Part shown: positions 1,548 to 13,545 of the stretch, piece after piece
Position numbering within the stretch: position 1 is the stretch's first letter
Layout of the letters: the number at the start of each line of letters is the position of its first letter
NCBI GenBank assembly: GCA_009699825.1
Contig: WLNM01000001.1
Coordinates: 1-39,657, forward strand
Source of the DNA: Actinomycetota bacterium
GTDB lineage: Bacteria; Actinomycetota; Actinomycetes; Nanopelagicales; Nanopelagicaceae
Direction of reading: 5' to 3'
Length of the DNA stretch: 39,657 bases
Position numbers and translations under genes: made by a program
Notes under the pieces: generated by a model
What the model was told of the DNA's origin: nothing
The model's input: only the letters and a program-made list of their open reading frames with translations
Databases searched by the model: none

Positions 1548-1554
1548 GCCCACG

Positions 1555-1675
1555 TTGTTCCGGGGGTCGGTGTAATTCCGAACCGGCGGTAAAGTCCGCG
1601 ACCCGATCAAAACCATTGATCGGTTGATTTGGTGAAATTCCAATACCGACAGTTAAAGTCTGGATAAAGGGACAT
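1555..1675 (+). ncRNA. FMN riboswitch (RFN element)
   Basis: Reads GGGGUCGGUGUAAUUCCGAACCGGCGGUAAAGUCCGCGA...GUUGAUUUGGUGAAAUUCCAAUACCGACAGUUAAAGUCUGGAU, matching the RFN consensus. P1 is UGUUCC/GGGACA. Located directly upstream of a PnuC-family transporter. Confidence 0.96.
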
Positions 1676-1715
1676 AGCTTCACCTATTCAATCCCGAAAA
1701 GGTGATGCTTTGTTG

Positions 1716-1751: not shown

Positions 1752-2417
1752 ATGTCATTAATTAAATGGCTTTTTGAAACAAATATCGCTTTTGGATCCA
1801 AATCCATTCCACTACGAGAAATTATTGGCGGCATCTTAGGATTAACAAGCGCTGTGCTTGGTGCTAAAAGAAAAATTGCTGCCTGGCCGATTGGTATCAT
1901 TGGCGACGCACTCTTATTTACGGTGTTTCTAGGTGCTGTCTTTGCTTACAGCGACCAAGATTCAAATTTTTATGGTCAAGCTGGTCGTAATTTACTTCTA
2001 ATAGTTGTCAGTGTTTATGGATGGATTCGCTGGACCGCATATAGAAAAATGTCGAAATCGCATACAACGGTGACACCTCGTTGGACCACCACAAAGGAAA
2101 AAATCTACTTAGTACCCACGATCGTGGTGGGCTATTTCTTAGCGATGAACATTTTCAAAGCCTTGGGAGAATCGGGCACTTGGCTACTAGTTGATACATG
2201 GATTTTCACTGGAACCGCATTAGCTACTTACGGAATGAGCAGAGGATATGTTGAATTCTGGCTCGTCTGGGTAGCGGTGGATTTAGTCGGTGTTCCATTC
2301 GCATTTATCAATGGTTATTACCCAACAGGTACTTTGTACGCGATTTACTTGCCATTCGTGCTGTGGGGCTTCATCTCATGGCTCAAAATTAGCAAGAATG
2401 AAAAGGTTGCTGTCTAG
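1752..2417 (+). CDS. ribM: PnuC-family riboflavin transporter (RibM/PnuX-like)
   Basis: Hydrophobic multi-TM protein with WPIGIIG, YGWIRW and VEFWLVWVAVDLVGVP motifs. Controlled by the FMN riboswitch. Confidence 0.85.
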   Translation: MSLIKWLFETNIAFGSKSIPLREIIGGILGLTSAVLGAKRKIAAWPIGIIGDALLFTVFLGAVFAYSDQDSNFYGQAGRNLLLIVVSVYGWIRWTAYRKMSKSHTTVTPRWTTTKEKIYLVPTIVVGYFLAMNIFKALGESGTWLLVDTWIFTGTALATYGMSRGYVEFWLVWVAVDLVGVPFAFINGYYPTGTLYAIYLPFVLWGFISWLKISKNEKVAV

Positions 2418-6294: not shown

Positions 6295-7728
6295 TTATCC
6301 AATCCAGGTATTAATTGGTGAAGCTAAGAAGTAGATCATAAAAAGACCACTGACGAGCATAAGAAGTGGATGAATTTCTTTGCGTCGTCCTTGGACCATG
6401 CGAATAACTACATGGGAAACAAATCCTGCGCCAATACCCACAGAAATATTGTAAGTAAATGGCATCAAGATGATTGTCAAAAATGCTGGAATCGCGATTC
6501 CGTAATCTGCCCAGTCAATTCCCTTAATCTGTGTCATCATGAGGAATCCCACAATAACAAGAGCTGGAGTTGCAGCTTCGTAAGGAATCACAGCAACAAG
6601 AGGCGCAAGGAAAGTGGTGAGAAGGAATAGAACACCAGTGACAACTGATGCTAAACCTGTACGAGCGCCTTCGCCGACACCAGATGCTGATTCAATGTAG
6701 CTGGTATTAGATGAAATACTGCCAGCTCCACCGGCAACTGCTGCCAATGAGTCAACTAGGAGAATTCGATCATTGTTAGGAATGTTTCCTTTTGAATCAA
6801 TAAGTCCTGATTCATGTCCGATCGCAGTAACAGTTCCTACGGTGTCAAAGAAATCTGATAGCAAAAGTGTAAAGACAATCAGAATTGCAGCAACTACAGA
6901 AATTCTGCTAAAAGATCCGAAGAGTGAGAAGTGTCCTAATAATCCAAAATCAGGAGTTGCAATCACATCAGATGGGATGCTTGGAACGTTAAGTCCCCAA
7001 CCCTTTGGATTGACTTTATCTGGGGCAATGAAGTTTGGACCGATTTTGAATGCAGATTCAACTGCTATTGCAGCAACGGTTGCTACAGAGATGCCAATTA
7101 ATAAGGCGCCTTTAACTTTCTTAACCATTAAAGCGATCATTAAGAAGAGTCCAAGTGCGAAAATTACAATTGGCCAACCAACGAGATTTCCATTATCGCC
7201 AAGTGTTACGGGTACAGGACCTGAACTTGTACGACGTACGAAACCTGCATCCACCAGACCGATCAATGCAATGAAGAGACCGATACCGACTGAGATCGCA
7301 ATCTTTAATTGCGCTGGGACTGCGCGGAATACCGCAGTTCTAAAACCAGTTAGAACCAGTACTGTGATGATTAAACCTTCAAGTACAACTAGTCCCATTG
7401 CATCTGCCCATGACATATGCGAAGCGATACCTACAGCTACGAAGGTGTTTAGACCTAGTCCGGTAGCCAATGCAAGAGGATAGTTACCGACAACGCCCAT
7501 AAGAATTGTAAGTACACCGGCGATGAGTGCAGTTGCTGCTGCAACCATTGCTAGGTTCGGAGCGTCGCCGCCACCGAGATATTTACCATCGGCATCTTTT
7601 GCCAAACCGATGATGAGTGGGTTAAGTGCCACGATGTATGCCATCGTGAAGAACGTAACGAAGCCGCCGCGAATTTCACGACCAACTGTTGATCCACGTT
7701 CTGTGATTTTGAAGTATGTATCTAGCAT
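6295..7728 (-). CDS. NCS2/AzgA-family nucleobase (purine) permease
   Basis: FFTMAYI, GLGLN, GIGLFIALIG, DFFDTVGT, YIESASGVGEGARTGL and MPFTYNI motifs. Confidence 0.93.
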   Translation of the reverse strand: MLDTYFKITERGSTVGREIRGGFVTFFTMAYIVALNPLIIGLAKDADGKYLGGGDAPNLAMVAAATALIAGVLTILMGVVGNYPLALATGLGLNTFVAVGIASHMSWADAMGLVVLEGLIITVLVLTGFRTAVFRAVPAQLKIAISVGIGLFIALIGLVDAGFVRRTSSGPVPVTLGDNGNLVGWPIVIFALGLFLMIALMVKKVKGALLIGISVATVAAIAVESAFKIGPNFIAPDKVNPKGWGLNVPSIPSDVIATPDFGLLGHFSLFGSFSRISVVAAILIVFTLLLSDFFDTVGTVTAIGHESGLIDSKGNIPNNDRILLVDSLAAVAGGAGSISSNTSYIESASGVGEGARTGLASVVTGVLFLLTTFLAPLVAVIPYEAATPALVIVGFLMMTQIKGIDWADYGIAIPAFLTIILMPFTYNISVGIGAGFVSHVVIRMVQGRRKEIHPLLMLVSGLFMIYFLASPINTWIG

Positions 7729-7817
7729 GTACGACCTTCCTGATTTTGGTATCGGGGGTGTTTGCGACCCCGTGCGAAATCACGGCTCGCAGGCCGGAGG
7801 AAGATACGAGAACGCTA
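7729..7817 (-). promoter_or_regulatory. -10 element plus structured 5' leader of the NCS2 permease (candidate cis-regulatory RNA)
   Basis: TAGCGT -10 at 7817-7812. AUCUUCCU pairs with the SD-containing AGGAAGGU. Internal hairpin at 7763-7791. Confidence 0.6.
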
Positions 7818-7818
7818 C

Positions 7819-8502
7819 CTATTTCTGAGAGGTAATTCGGGAAACAACACCCAATGAGATGGCAATAGATTGGCCGATTAGCAGGGCAAAAAGTGCGGTT
7901 CCAAGCCCGACAGTGCCCCCAAGGAAGGCTCCAATAATGAGTACCGTGGATTCAATTCCCAGTCGAACTCTTCCCACGCGGATTCCGCTTCGATTGTGAA
8001 GGGCAGTCATTAGTCCATCTCTAGGTCCCGGCCCTAGAGCACATGTTATGTAGAGTGCAGAGCCCATTCCAACCATTGCGATCCCTAGTAAATCCATCAG
8101 TACACCTGATAAATAATTACTGGCTGAAGGAAAAACATTAACACCCAGTTGAATTGCACTTGCAATAATTACGATATTTGCGATTGTGCCAAAGCCTGGT
8201 TTTTCACGTAATGGAATCCATAAAAGTAAAACAAGGGTGCTAATGGTAAATGTTGAGATACCTAGAGAAATATCCAATTTTTTCGAAACACCTTCTGCAA
8301 GAACTGTCCAAGGAGCATTGCCTGTGCCGCTTTGTACAAAAAGTGAATCCCCGAGACCGAAAATAAGTAATCCGAAAAAAAGAATAAGTGTTCTACGTAT
8401 TGATAAATCCCATCTATGCCGCGCAGCCCATGAAGTATGTGGAATAGTCCTATGGGGGCGTAGGAATTCTAAAAAAACATTCTTCGAGGCATCTGAACTC
8501 AT
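7819..8502 (-). CDS. YczE/YitT-like membrane protein
   Basis: GNAPWTVLAEG, EKPGFGTIAN and LGPGPRDGLM repeats. Start reassigned to the ATG at 8502, 6 nt after a TACTAT -10. Confidence 0.85.
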   Translation of the reverse strand: MSSDASKNVFLEFLRPHRTIPHTSWAARHRWDLSIRRTLILFFGLLIFGLGDSLFVQSGTGNAPWTVLAEGVSKKLDISLGISTFTISTLVLLLWIPLREKPGFGTIANIVIIASAIQLGVNVFPSASNYLSGVLMDLLGIAMVGMGSALYITCALGPGPRDGLMTALHNRSGIRVGRVRLGIESTVLIIGAFLGGTVGLGTALFALLIGQSIAISLGVVSRITSQK

Positions 8503-8545
8503 TGAGCAATAGTACGGGGTAGACTGCGTCAATGAGGTTTTTATC

Positions 8546-9283
8546 GTGATTATCGGCTTAGGTACTTTAATTAATATCGCAACAATTGTTGCTGGTGCAA
8601 CCGTTGGTGTTTTGGCTGGATCTCGCTTAGCCCCAAAAACTCGTGATTTGATAACAGATATTTTGGGTTTAATCACAATACTTGCGGCTTCTAGTGCTGT
8701 TATCCCGATGTTTAGCAGTGAATTCTCTTCTTCGCTTCCAAAGGGGTGGACGTTATTGAGCATTCTGGGTTCATTACTACTCGGAGGTTTAATTGGCTCC
8801 GCATTAAAGTTAGAAGATCGCTTGGAGAAACTTGGCGAGAAACTACGTCGCAAATTTGGTGCGCATCAAGAAGGAACTTTTGTGGAAGGTTTTGTTTCTT
8901 CTTCCCTACTTTTTGTTATTGGCCCTCTTGCTATTTTAGGAAGTATTAGCGATGGCATGGGTACCGGAATTGACCAGCTTTCCTTAAAATCAATCCTCGA
9001 TTTTTTTGCAGCCATAGCCTTTGCTGCCTCTTTAGGCTGGGGAGTAGCTGCTTCAGCGATTCCAGTTGGCATATATCAAGGTATCTGGACCTTGGTTGGT
9101 TTATTTCTTGGAAACATTCTGGCGCAATATCAAGTTGACGCCATGACAATTGTCGGTGGATTGCTCCTACTGTCCATTGGATTACGCCTACTTCGTATCA
9201 AGGAAGTAGCAGTCGGAAACCTATTACCGGCTTTGGCTATTGCTCCGATTTTTGTTTATGTACTCCACACGTTTCTATCTTAG
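8546..9283 (+). CDS. DUF554 (YqgA/YdfK-like) membrane protein
   Basis: GTLINIATIVAG, FVEGFVSSSLLFVIGPLAILGSI.DG, LKSILD and VGNLLPAL motifs. Confidence 0.88.
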   Translation: MIIGLGTLINIATIVAGATVGVLAGSRLAPKTRDLITDILGLITILAASSAVIPMFSSEFSSSLPKGWTLLSILGSLLLGGLIGSALKLEDRLEKLGEKLRRKFGAHQEGTFVEGFVSSSLLFVIGPLAILGSISDGMGTGIDQLSLKSILDFFAAIAFAASLGWGVAASAIPVGIYQGIWTLVGLFLGNILAQYQVDAMTIVGGLLLLSIGLRLLRIKEVAVGNLLPALAIAPIFVYVLHTFLS

Positions 9284-13461: not shown

Positions 13462-13545
13462 TGTCCGAGAGGGGACTTGAACCCCTAAGCCCTTGCGGGC
13501 ACTAACACCTCAAGCTAGCGCGTCTGCCAATTCCGCCACCCGGAC
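13462..13545 (-). tRNA. tRNA-Leu (anticodon GAG)
   Basis: Reverse complement GTCCGGGTGGCGGAATTGGCAGACGCGCTAGCTTGAGGTGTTAGTGCCCGCAAGGGCTTAGGGGTTCAAGTCCCCTCTCGGACA folds as a cloverleaf with a long variable arm. CCA is not encoded. Confidence 0.97.

What the first reader, a model, noticed from the sequence alone, without database searches (positions are those of the whole stretch)
7729..7817. Candidate novel riboswitch-like leader on an NCS2/AzgA purine permease
Seen in sequence: the 90-bp gap upstream of the permease is long for this window and about 58% GC by my count over 7734-7805. A TAGCGT -10 (7817-7812) predicts +1 near 7805, exactly where AUCUUCCU begins. That segment pairs over 8 bp with AGGAAGGU (7741-7734), the Shine-Dalgarno region 5 nt before the ATG. 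The enclosed region can form hairpin A (UGCGA-G-CCGUG/AUUUCG/CACGG-GG-UCGCA, 7791-7763) or hairpin B (CGGGGU-CGCAAAC-ACCCCCG, 7772-7753). The two share the GGGG tract and are mutually exclusive. Established: AzgA/PbuG permeases are often under purine riboswitch control. I cannot match this leader to the guanine/adenine, xanthine (NMT1), ZTP or PRPP consensus from memory. Inference: an undescribed nucleobase-responsive translational switch or a protein-binding leader.
Basis: partly seen in the sequence, partly recalled or inferred. Interest (0 to 1): 0.78.

Follow-up and report, generated by a model that had tools for sequence, protein, structure and literature searches.

The report
Repurposed preQ1-type riboswitch on purine importer
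A short RNA leader conserved in front of a predicted purine-uptake gene across a family of freshwater bacteria has the sequence pattern of a preQ1 riboswitch plus an extra predicted knot, and it likely senses guanine instead and likely turns the transporter down, which would make it a new riboswitch variant that standard annotation misses.

Summary
"Hairpin B" plus the A-rich tail (7772-7740) is a preQ1-I-type aptamer that scores below Rfam's cut-off (18.6 vs 39 bits). It is present in 68 of 70 orthologous leaders and in 138 of 151 Nanopelagicaceae (acI) genomes, with compensatory changes in 4 of 5 stem pairs. Upstream lie a covarying H-type pseudoknot (7796-7773) and a pyrimidine tract at the predicted start that can pair with the Shine-Dalgarno sequence (no clear covariation). 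The element precedes only nucleobase permeases (AzgA-type NCS2; NCS1 where that replaced it in place) and was not found at the tgt/yhhQ loci scanned. queA was found in 0 of 151 genomes, so preQ1 is an unlikely ligand. Best reading: translational feedback repression by guanine or a close purine base. Main rivals: queuine sensing (tgt is in 141 of 151 genomes) and ON rather than OFF logic. Ligand and direction are untested. Ten literature searches found no description, but the key 2014 alignment paper was unreadable. Verdict: new variant of a known kind.

The parts
7812..7817 (-). Predicted -10 hexamer (TANNNT type), directly after the stop codon of the upstream yczE-type gene
   Evidence: Sequence; same position in 118 of 127 leaders vs 18% of shuffles. 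Start site not mapped.
7798..7805 (-). 5' pyrimidine tract at the predicted transcription start; can pair with G33 and the Shine-Dalgarno sequence ('clamp')
   Evidence: Conserved UUCCC-like core (79-94% per position); best register starts at aptamer G33 (77.5% paired vs 39-60% slid); clamp forms in 103 of 127 leaders, median -6.0 kcal/mol; cognate no better than non-cognate.
7793..7796 (-). 5' pseudoknot stem S1, 5' strand (pairs with 7786-7783)
   Evidence: Compensatory variants; 82.5% of cells paired in A2 (some rows are visibly shifted by one column).
7787..7791 (-). 5' pseudoknot stem S2, 5' strand (pairs with 7777-7773)
   Evidence: 100% of cells paired, all 5 pairs with compensatory change; predicted independently by RNAalifold.
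7783..7786 (-). 5' pseudoknot stem S1, 3' strand
7773..7777 (-). 5' pseudoknot stem S2, 3' strand; abuts aptamer P1 with no linker
7768..7772 (-). Aptamer P1, 5' strand (positions 1-5; G5 = predicted pocket floor)
   Evidence: 100% paired, 4 of 5 pairs with change on both sides, G5-C16 invariant in 50 of 50.
7758..7767 (-). Aptamer loop, positions 6-15 (U6 7767, C7, G8, C9, A10, A11, A12, C13, A14, specificity base C15 7758)
   Evidence: U6, C7, G8, A10, A11, C13, C15 invariant in A1 (all but A11 were demanded by the pattern, which 68 of 70 protein-selected leaders met); aligns to RF00522.
7753..7757 (-). Aptamer P1, 3' strand (positions 16-20)
7740..7752 (-). A-rich tail (A26-A29 = 7747-7744) and 3' end U30-C31-A32-G33; A32/G33 are the first two Shine-Dalgarno bases
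   Evidence: Tail 11-13 nt in 154 leaders; A32 in register with the 16S 3' end in 118 of 143.
7734..7741 (-). Shine-Dalgarno region
   Evidence: Complementary to the 16S rRNA 3' end read from three relatives.
6295..7728 (-). Regulated gene: AZG/AzgA-type NCS2 permease, 477 aa
   Evidence: PF00860; best solved relatives are plant adenine/guanine permeases AZG1/AZG2; 37% identical to E. coli AdeP, 33% to GhxP.
7819..8853 (-). Upstream ORF whose 3' 206 codons match membrane protein YczE; its 3' end would hold the -35 region
   Evidence: NF052291 above cut-off; same neighbour in most relatives inspected.

Best explanation
The leader carries a conserved preQ1-I-type aptamer with an extra predicted 5' pseudoknot, and it likely acts as a translational riboswitch that senses guanine or a close free purine base rather than preQ1 and likely represses the predicted purine importer behind it. 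SHOWN: conserved start architecture; covarying P1, S1 and S2; conserved pocket bases G5, U6, C15, A29; association only with nucleobase permeases. INFERRED from solved preQ1-I structures: a ligand with a guanine-like face pairs with C15, the A-rich tail docks on P1, and A32/G33, the first two Shine-Dalgarno bases, are drawn into the upper helix. That would also remove the single-stranded tail on which a 30S subunit could load. INFERRED, weakest: the 5' tract damps basal translation by pairing with the SD, and the pseudoknot is a structural spacer between tract and aptamer (it has no invariant bases and is missing in genera g6 and g9). My odds per step: ligand-binding preQ1-I-type fold 0.92; ligand a free purine base, not a queuosine precursor, 0.55; OFF rather than ON 0.55.
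For: Fold: full-length sub-threshold RF00522 alignment (21.3 bits in G001); P1 covariation with 0 of 500 shuffles as high and slid controls 46-73% paired; S1+S2+P1; pseudoknot parse in 129 of 154 leaders vs 108 of 3080 shuffles. Purine ligand: of 120 GTDB pattern hits, 74 had a full P1, of which 69 precede AzgA, 1 NCS1, 3 are cut by contig ends and 1 is unrelated; of 120 metagenome hits, 69 had a full P1 (64 AzgA, 4 NCS1, 1 cut); none of the 97 hits without P1 precedes either permease. The same leader stays intact before an NCS1 permease in 7 loci of 6 genomes, at the locus where a congener has AzgA. No motif at 15 yhhQ/tgt loci (13 of them also scanned with Rfam), although those genera carry both yhhQ and AzgA. 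queA 0 of 151; queG and queT 0 of 5, queC only weak partial hits in 4 of 5; hpt 5 of 5. 87 of 95 AzgA-positive genomes outside the family have no tgt, so the permease is not queuosine-dedicated. OFF: A32 is in 16S register in 118 of 143 leaders, as in the Tte and Can riboswitches (PMC11625349, PMC10622847). The permeases of G131 and G139, both with a broken or lost aptamer, differ at saturated synonymous sites (pS 0.79) but pN is only 0.046, as expected if loss leaves the gene on.
Against: The pocket keeps every alpha-site base, including the G5 floor that contacts the aminomethyl group; the Bsu pocket ranks preQ1 > preQ0 > guanine (PMC11625349). No substitution points positively to guanine. 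tgt is nearly universal in this family (141 of 151) but rare elsewhere in the class sample (13 of 192), the same pattern as the aptamer (0 of 145); yhhQ was found in only 5 of 18 genera. The NCS1 cases may be one or two events and the leader was probably inherited in place, not recruited. That NCS1 travels with a cytidine/cytosine-deaminase-family gene and may prefer cytosine. Against OFF: the 5' tract is predicted to close the SD without ligand (-8.3 kcal/mol here; at most -3 in 85 of 127 vs 35 for an upstream control); C9-G33 is Watson-Crick in only 125 of 154; in 10 of 154 leaders the start codon is 31-38 nt past the aptamer. The aptamer losses in G131/G139 could be recent.
Confidence: 0.4

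Rival explanations
1. The aptamer still reads a 7-deazaguanine. It senses queuine (or preQ1), and the AzgA-type permease, or its NCS1 stand-in, is the missing queuosine-precursor importer feeding a TGT that works without QueA.
For: All alpha-site bases kept (PMC11625349). tgt in 141 of 151 family genomes vs 13 of 192 outside, matching the aptamer's range. yhhQ found in only 43 of 151 and queT in 0 of 5. g15 has no tgt hit and its NCS1 leaders lack the aptamer. Recalled, not checked: plant AZG proteins carry bulky adenine derivatives.
Against: Absent from 15 yhhQ/tgt loci. Present on AzgA in genera that already have yhhQ. g4 has tgt (9 of 9) with no aptamer found (0 of 3) and g5 genomes that lost it keep tgt. 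AzgA is the only AZG-type permease seen in the 5 genomes tested, and G001 has no purF above cut-off; tying the main purine importer to a trace micronutrient seems maladaptive (inference).
Confidence: 0.33
2. Same aptamer, opposite sign (ON switch). Without ligand the 5' tract pairs with G33 and the SD. Ligand docks the tail along P1, the stacked pseudoknot holds the tract far from the SD, and translation rises, so substrate induces its importer. Confidence is for the direction alone.
For: Clamp forms in 103 of 127 leaders with P1 and S2 held; best register starts at G33, the base P2 needs; weak signal in A2 (1 of 500 shuffles reach the covariation score). 5'-tract:SD pairing is also in the predicted fold of all 10 aptamer-less, degenerate or different-insert leaders folded. 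No amidohydrolase-type guanine deaminase is needed for this logic (0 of 5 above cut-off).
Against: No cognate advantage (-6.26 vs -6.16 kcal/mol; 1317 of 5000 permutations as good); only 66% of cells paired in A2; 24 of 127 leaders form no clamp. Genes with clamp-only leaders remain intact and conserved, so the clamp does not silence. All members listed in the review repress or terminate (PMC11625349, Table 1 and Fig. 6 legend). The geometry argument is mine and unmodelled.
Confidence: 0.4
3. The 5' tract is a second, independent control of the pyrC type (recalled): the start site shifts between a purine and downstream pyrimidines with NTP pools and so changes clamp strength, in series with the aptamer.
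For: The tract sits right at the predicted start and persists without the aptamer in G131 and g15; the promoter-tract-SD pattern picked out only this gene in the 75%-complete own genome.
Against: Position of the first purine after the hexamer varies (5: 46, 7: 43, 8: 13, none: 10 of 118). A 2-nt shift would leave 6 bp here. No start-site data (uninformative).
Confidence: 0.2
4. One reading: an undescribed fold toggling between hairpins A and B, or a protein-binding leader.
For: Hairpin A can form in many relatives (81% of cells) and has probability about 0.7 in the pseudoknot-blind ensemble of this sequence at 37 C; in g10 a loop change C9 to U coincides with a matching change in the S2 strand.
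Against: Covariation 0.094 vs 0.084 shuffled, further pair types not above shuffles; predicted above 0.5 in only 17% of 127 leaders; impossible in g6/g9, which lack the 5' domain. Invariant unpaired bases map onto the preQ1-I pocket.
Confidence: 0.06

Closest known systems
preQ1-I riboswitch, type II (T. tengcongensis translational form; Rfam RF00522)
   Same: 5-bp P1 closed by G5-C16, AC before the P1 3' strand, C7, G8, A10, A14, A-rich tail, first two SD bases at the aptamer's 3' end (features from PMC11625349, PMC10622847).
   Different: 18.6-21.3 bits vs cut-off 39. Invariant A11 and U or nothing at 30 instead of the G11-C30 ceiling pair; invariant C13; extra 5' pseudoknot and tract; controls nucleobase permeases, not que genes, queT or yhhQ; host lacks queA.
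preQ1-I type I (C. antarcticum, two ligands)
   Same: A C-A-pyrimidine ceiling like Can C8-A12-U32 is possible (C7-A11-Y31, inference); the terminal G-C pair is dispensable in both.
   Different: Lacks the beta-site signatures (UU above P1, UC before the 3' strand), so one ligand is predicted. [quoted passage not shown]
Guanine (purine) riboswitch RF00167 on COG2252 permeases and its variants
   Same: Same kind of target: 22% of purine riboswitches precede COG2252 permeases (PMC5737381). Guanine-class variants show that ligand shifts follow gene-context shifts (PMC9295807, title and abstract start).
   Different: No three-way junction and no Rfam match; a different fold would be doing the job.
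pyrC/pyrD start-site-switching leaders (recalled)
   Same: 5'-terminal pyrimidine-rich segment that can hide the SD.
   Different: Here it encloses an aptamer; switching untested.

Membership tests
preQ1-I riboswitch (RF00522) | Covariance-model score at or above the gathering threshold (39 bits) | tested here: not met
   18.6 bits, E 0.13; 21.3 bits in G001.
preQ1-I riboswitch (RF00522) | 5-bp P1 with G5-C16 pocket floor | tested here: met
   100% paired, 4 of 5 pairs compensatory, G5-C16 invariant.
preQ1-I riboswitch (RF00522) | Alpha-site bases: U6, specificity C before P1 3' strand, adenine of the A-rich loop | tested here: met
   Conserved in 68 of 70 protein-selected leaders. Roles from PMC11625349; the numbers C15 and A29 follow my recalled Tte numbering.
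preQ1-I type II | AC before the P1 3' strand | tested here: met
   A14 in 153 of 154, C15 in all (C15 demanded by the pattern).
preQ1-I type II (Tte) | Ceiling built on a G11-C30 pair | tested here: not met
   A11 invariant; position 30 is U or missing. Type II ceilings differ among members (Bsu), so this does not exclude type II.
preQ1-I type I | Beta-site signatures UU and UC | tested here: not met
   Single U6, AC not UC.
preQ1-I riboswitch (translational) | First two SD bases at the aptamer's 3' end | tested here: met
   118 of 143 short leaders; 11 of 154 rows left out (10 long leaders, 1 mis-called start).
preQ1-I riboswitch (RF00522) | Controls queuosine synthesis or known precursor-transport genes | tested here: not met
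   Only AzgA or NCS1 downstream; none at 15 yhhQ/tgt loci.
preQ1-I riboswitch (RF00522) | Binds preQ1 and represses expression | not testable with these tools
   Needs binding and reporter assays.
Purine (RF00167), NMT1/xanthine, ZTP, ykkC/PRPP and other Rfam 15 families | Match to the family model | tested here: not met
   No hit at cut-off; with E up to 10 only PreQ1 and a chance match inside the coding region.
Miniature NAD+-II riboswitch (recalled, small pseudoknot) | Consensus pocket and NAD-salvage gene context | not tested
   No paper on it in the listing; downstream genes are not pnuC/nad genes.
AZG/AzgA subfamily of NCS2 permeases (regulated gene) | PF00860 fold, closest to AZG purine permeases | tested here: met
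AZG/AzgA subfamily of NCS2 permeases (regulated gene) | Transports guanine, hypoxanthine or adenine | not testable with these tools
   Homology only.

The most novel reading that the evidence does not exclude
A new riboswitch class by ligand: a preQ1-I scaffold that has switched to guanine (or is the first natural queuine sensor, revealing AZG and NCS1 permeases as queuine importers), wired through a pseudoknot strut and a 5'-terminal SD clamp into an ON switch, so that streamlined lake actinobacteria build their nucleobase importer only when substrate appears.
Probability: 0.27. Interest if true: 0.87.

Novelty: new variant of a known kind. Interest (0 to 1): 0.72.

Why it matters
Either ligand answer is new. 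If guanine, a 33-nt preQ1-I scaffold has been re-aimed at a common purine without touching the known pocket bases, a direct test of how that pocket discriminates, and a second fold doing the guanine riboswitch's job. If queuine, it names a missing queuosine-precursor transporter family and a sensor for a micronutrient in bacteria that have TGT but no QueA. The element is nearly universal in acI/Nanopelagicaceae (by recall among the most abundant lake bacteria), is invisible at Rfam's cut-off, and is small enough to settle with one in-line probing experiment. Natural variants (no pseudoknot, displaced SD, deleted loop) supply ready controls.

Tried and rejected
Folding z-score: no signal. Sigma-70 and terminator scan: nothing, so no evidence for transcriptional attenuation. 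Hairpin A as conserved alternative: not supported by covariation. 5' tract pairing with P1's G-run: mean -5.1 kcal/mol, weaker than with the SD, and the tract does not follow P1 changes. Wider distribution: model R1 found 0 of 145 non-family class genomes and two weak non-matching hits in 150 phylum genomes; 22 of 23 non-family orthologue loci scanned without filters gave nothing, 20 of them no Rfam leader, and none of the 23 a loose pattern hit. R1 is narrow, so diverged forms may be missed. g4, g12 and g15 NCS1 leaders: no R1 or Rfam match. RF00522 in 5 genomes including tgt-less g15: only the known site in G001 and weak hits, four of which I read without finding a convincing leader. RNA runs: shares of 0.05-0.06, contigs of relatives only; no evidence on expression or start site. 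TGT pocket motif read but not interpretable without a reference alignment. Permease alignment does not resolve substrate. Three look-ups of earlier scan findings returned nothing. McCown 2014 and a queuine-salvage paper were not held.

Full report
Observation. The leader is not more stable than shuffles (z -0.36). Rfam has no hit here at cut-off, but a permissive scan of 7650-7900 aligns 7777-7734 over the whole PreQ1 model at 18.6 bits against a cut-off of 39.

Host and gene. The permease has a match in 126 of 151 genomes of the family. Named GTDB records with the same leader and permease are Planktophila, Nanopelagicaceae and acI bins, so the window is taken to be Nanopelagicaceae. The protein is PF00860; its solved relatives are AZG1 and AZG2; it is 37% identical to E. 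coli AdeP and 33% to GhxP. Substrate is by homology only.

The aptamer. I examined 70 of the 126 orthologue leaders (the 30 best hits and 40 chosen down the ranking). 68 carry a 5-bp stem, a 10-nt loop, an A4 run and a final AG. On 50 distinct rows the stem is 100% paired, 4 of 5 pairs show change on both sides, 0 of 500 shuffles reach the covariation score, and slid controls pair 46-73%. Kin are not independent, but there are at least five distinct compensatory stem types. A model built on these rows finds 138 of 151 genomes in the order sample, all of one family, 0 of 145 non-family genomes of the class and nothing convincing in 150 phylum genomes. Non-family orthologue loci lack it. Against the features in PMC11625349 and PMC10622847, the G5-C16 floor, U6, the AC type II signature with its specificity C, C7, G8, A10, A14 and the A-rich loop are kept. 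The G11-C30 ceiling is replaced by invariant A11 with U or nothing at 30, C13 is invariant, and position 9 is C, A or U in 125, 20 and 9 of 154 leaders. The 154-leader set is pattern-defined, so its invariants are partly circular; the 68 of 70 figure is not.

The 5' domain. 129 of 154 leaders parse as an H-type pseudoknot directly before P1, against 108 of 3080 shuffles. On 67 of about 100 distinct such leaders, which I picked largely for similar spacing, S1, S2 and P1 give 95% paired cells and 12 of 14 compensatory pairs; RNAalifold finds S2 and P1 unaided. That S1 and S2 form together is inferred from non-overlap and loop lengths. The domain is missing in genera g6 and g9. It is 81% paired, with covariation near the shuffled level. 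It dominates the pseudoknot-blind ensemble of this one sequence at 37 C but exceeds 0.5 in only 17% of 127 leaders at 20 C.

Start and clamp. A TANNNT hexamer ends 11-17 nt before S1 in 118 of 127 leaders (18% in shuffles), placing the start at the pyrimidine tract. The tract pairs best in a register starting at G33. With P1 and S2 held it closes on the SD in 103 of 127 leaders, median -6.0 kcal/mol, at most -3 in 85 against 35 for an upstream control. But own partners are no better than foreign ones, and a fixed 8-bp helix is 66% paired. The same kind of 5'-tract:SD pairing appears in the predicted folds of all 10 aptamer-less, degenerate or different-insert leaders I folded. The 16S tail of three relatives puts A32 in first position of the SD in 118 of 143 short leaders, the arrangement of the Tte and Can riboswitches.

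What it controls. In capped scans of GTDB and metagenomes (120 hits each, more exist), hits with a full P1 precede AzgA (69 and 64) or NCS1 (1 and 4); four are cut by contig ends and one is unrelated; none of 97 hits without P1 precedes either gene. In part of genus g8 the leader precedes an NCS1 permease (7 loci, 6 genomes), between the same flanking genes, including the GMP reductase guaB1, that surround AzgA in G141. Close orthologues of this NCS1 occur in 14 genomes, all without an AzgA hit; in the g4, g12 and g15 loci read it lies next to a deaminase that resembles yeast cytosine deaminase (resemblance recalled; Pfam PF00383) and lacks the aptamer.

Ligand. tgt is in 141 of 151 genomes, queA in 0 of 151, queG and queT in 0 of 5; queC gives only weak partial hits. 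So preQ1 is probably neither made nor matured. yhhQ is in 43 of 151 genomes, mostly beside tgt, and 15 yhhQ/tgt loci have no motif. Outside the family 87 of 95 AzgA-positive genomes lack tgt (the tally includes four genomes flagged unpublished: G227, G250, G256, G262). hpt is in 5 of 5, purF in 4 of 5, guanine deaminase in 0 of 5 above cut-off. This favours a free purine with a guanine face. Against it, the pocket is unchanged, guanine is the weakest of three ligands for the Bsu pocket (PMC11625349), and tgt and the aptamer share a family-level distribution (tgt 13 of 192 outside). I put guanine-type base at 0.55, queuine or preQ1 at 0.33.

Direction. OFF rests on the SD register, on precedent, and on genus g5, where G063 and G139 have lost most of the loop and G131 the whole aptamer while the G131 and G139 permeases stay full-length with pN 0.046 at saturated pS. 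ON rests on the clamp, which is predicted to hide the SD without ligand and to compete for G33. I put OFF at 0.55 and ON at 0.4. Public RNA runs gave no usable evidence.

Literature. Ten searches listed no paper describing this element; I judged most by title and abstract start. Read: PMC11625349 (abstract, first three parts of the text, section 8, first part of section 9), and keyword passages of PMC10622847, PMC5737381, PMC5473149, PMC10043782, PMC3766115 and PMC9295807. No supplements were read. McCown 2014, whose alignments define the three types and include environmental sequences, was not held; these RNAs could be hidden there as type II members. Subscription papers are largely outside the library. 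Recalled and untested: pyrC-type start switching, a miniature NAD+-II class, cytokinin transport by AZG, the labels crtB and crtI.

Verdict. It works like a translational preQ1-I riboswitch in fold, but fails three membership tests (score, Tte-type ceiling, gene context) and adds a 5' pseudoknot and clamp. New variant of a known kind; interest 0.72.

Noticed in passing
window 1552-1678 (+) and 1752-2417 (+): FMN riboswitch (95.3 bits) in front of a PnuC-family membrane protein, probably a riboflavin importer.
   Followed up: no
window 13462-13545 (-): tRNA match.
   Followed up: no
L287, L289, L290, L291 and L288, L294, L295 (about 100 nt before position 1500 in gene orientation); L296: Two other conserved, structured leader types before the NCS1-deaminase operon of genus g4, one ending in an A-rich tail next to the SD; no Rfam or R1 match in those scanned. 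Candidate new RNA motifs, perhaps pyrimidine-responsive.
   Followed up: partly
L042/L320 (G131), L043 (G063), L321 (G139): Decay series in genus g5: loop deletion in two genomes, complete loss in a third leaving a 7-bp SD hairpin; permease ORFs intact.
   Followed up: yes
L044, L045, L059 and similar (genus g18): A 20-25 nt hairpin is inserted between aptamer and SD, moving the start codon 31-38 nt away; direct occlusion cannot explain control there.
   Followed up: partly
L316-L319 vs L225-L230, L287, L290, L296: AzgA and NCS1 permeases replace each other at two loci (beside guaB1; between genes that look like crtB and crtI, labels recalled).
   Followed up: partly
G000:C46:3729-4892 (-): TGT without QueA or QueG across the family; the motif after the second glycine pair differs from the recalled canonical one, suggesting direct queuine insertion.
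   Followed up: partly
G001 (complete genome, genus g2): No purF above cut-off: possible purine auxotrophy in this genus.
   Followed up: no
L225 and L226 (G053): Two NCS1 loci, 93% identical in protein, each with the leader; could be a duplication or mixed strains in the bin.
   Followed up: no
L298, L299, L300, L301: The same 5' pyrimidine tract precedes aptamer-less NCS1 genes, including distant ones, suggesting a wider leader module for nucleobase permeases in this family.
   Followed up: partly
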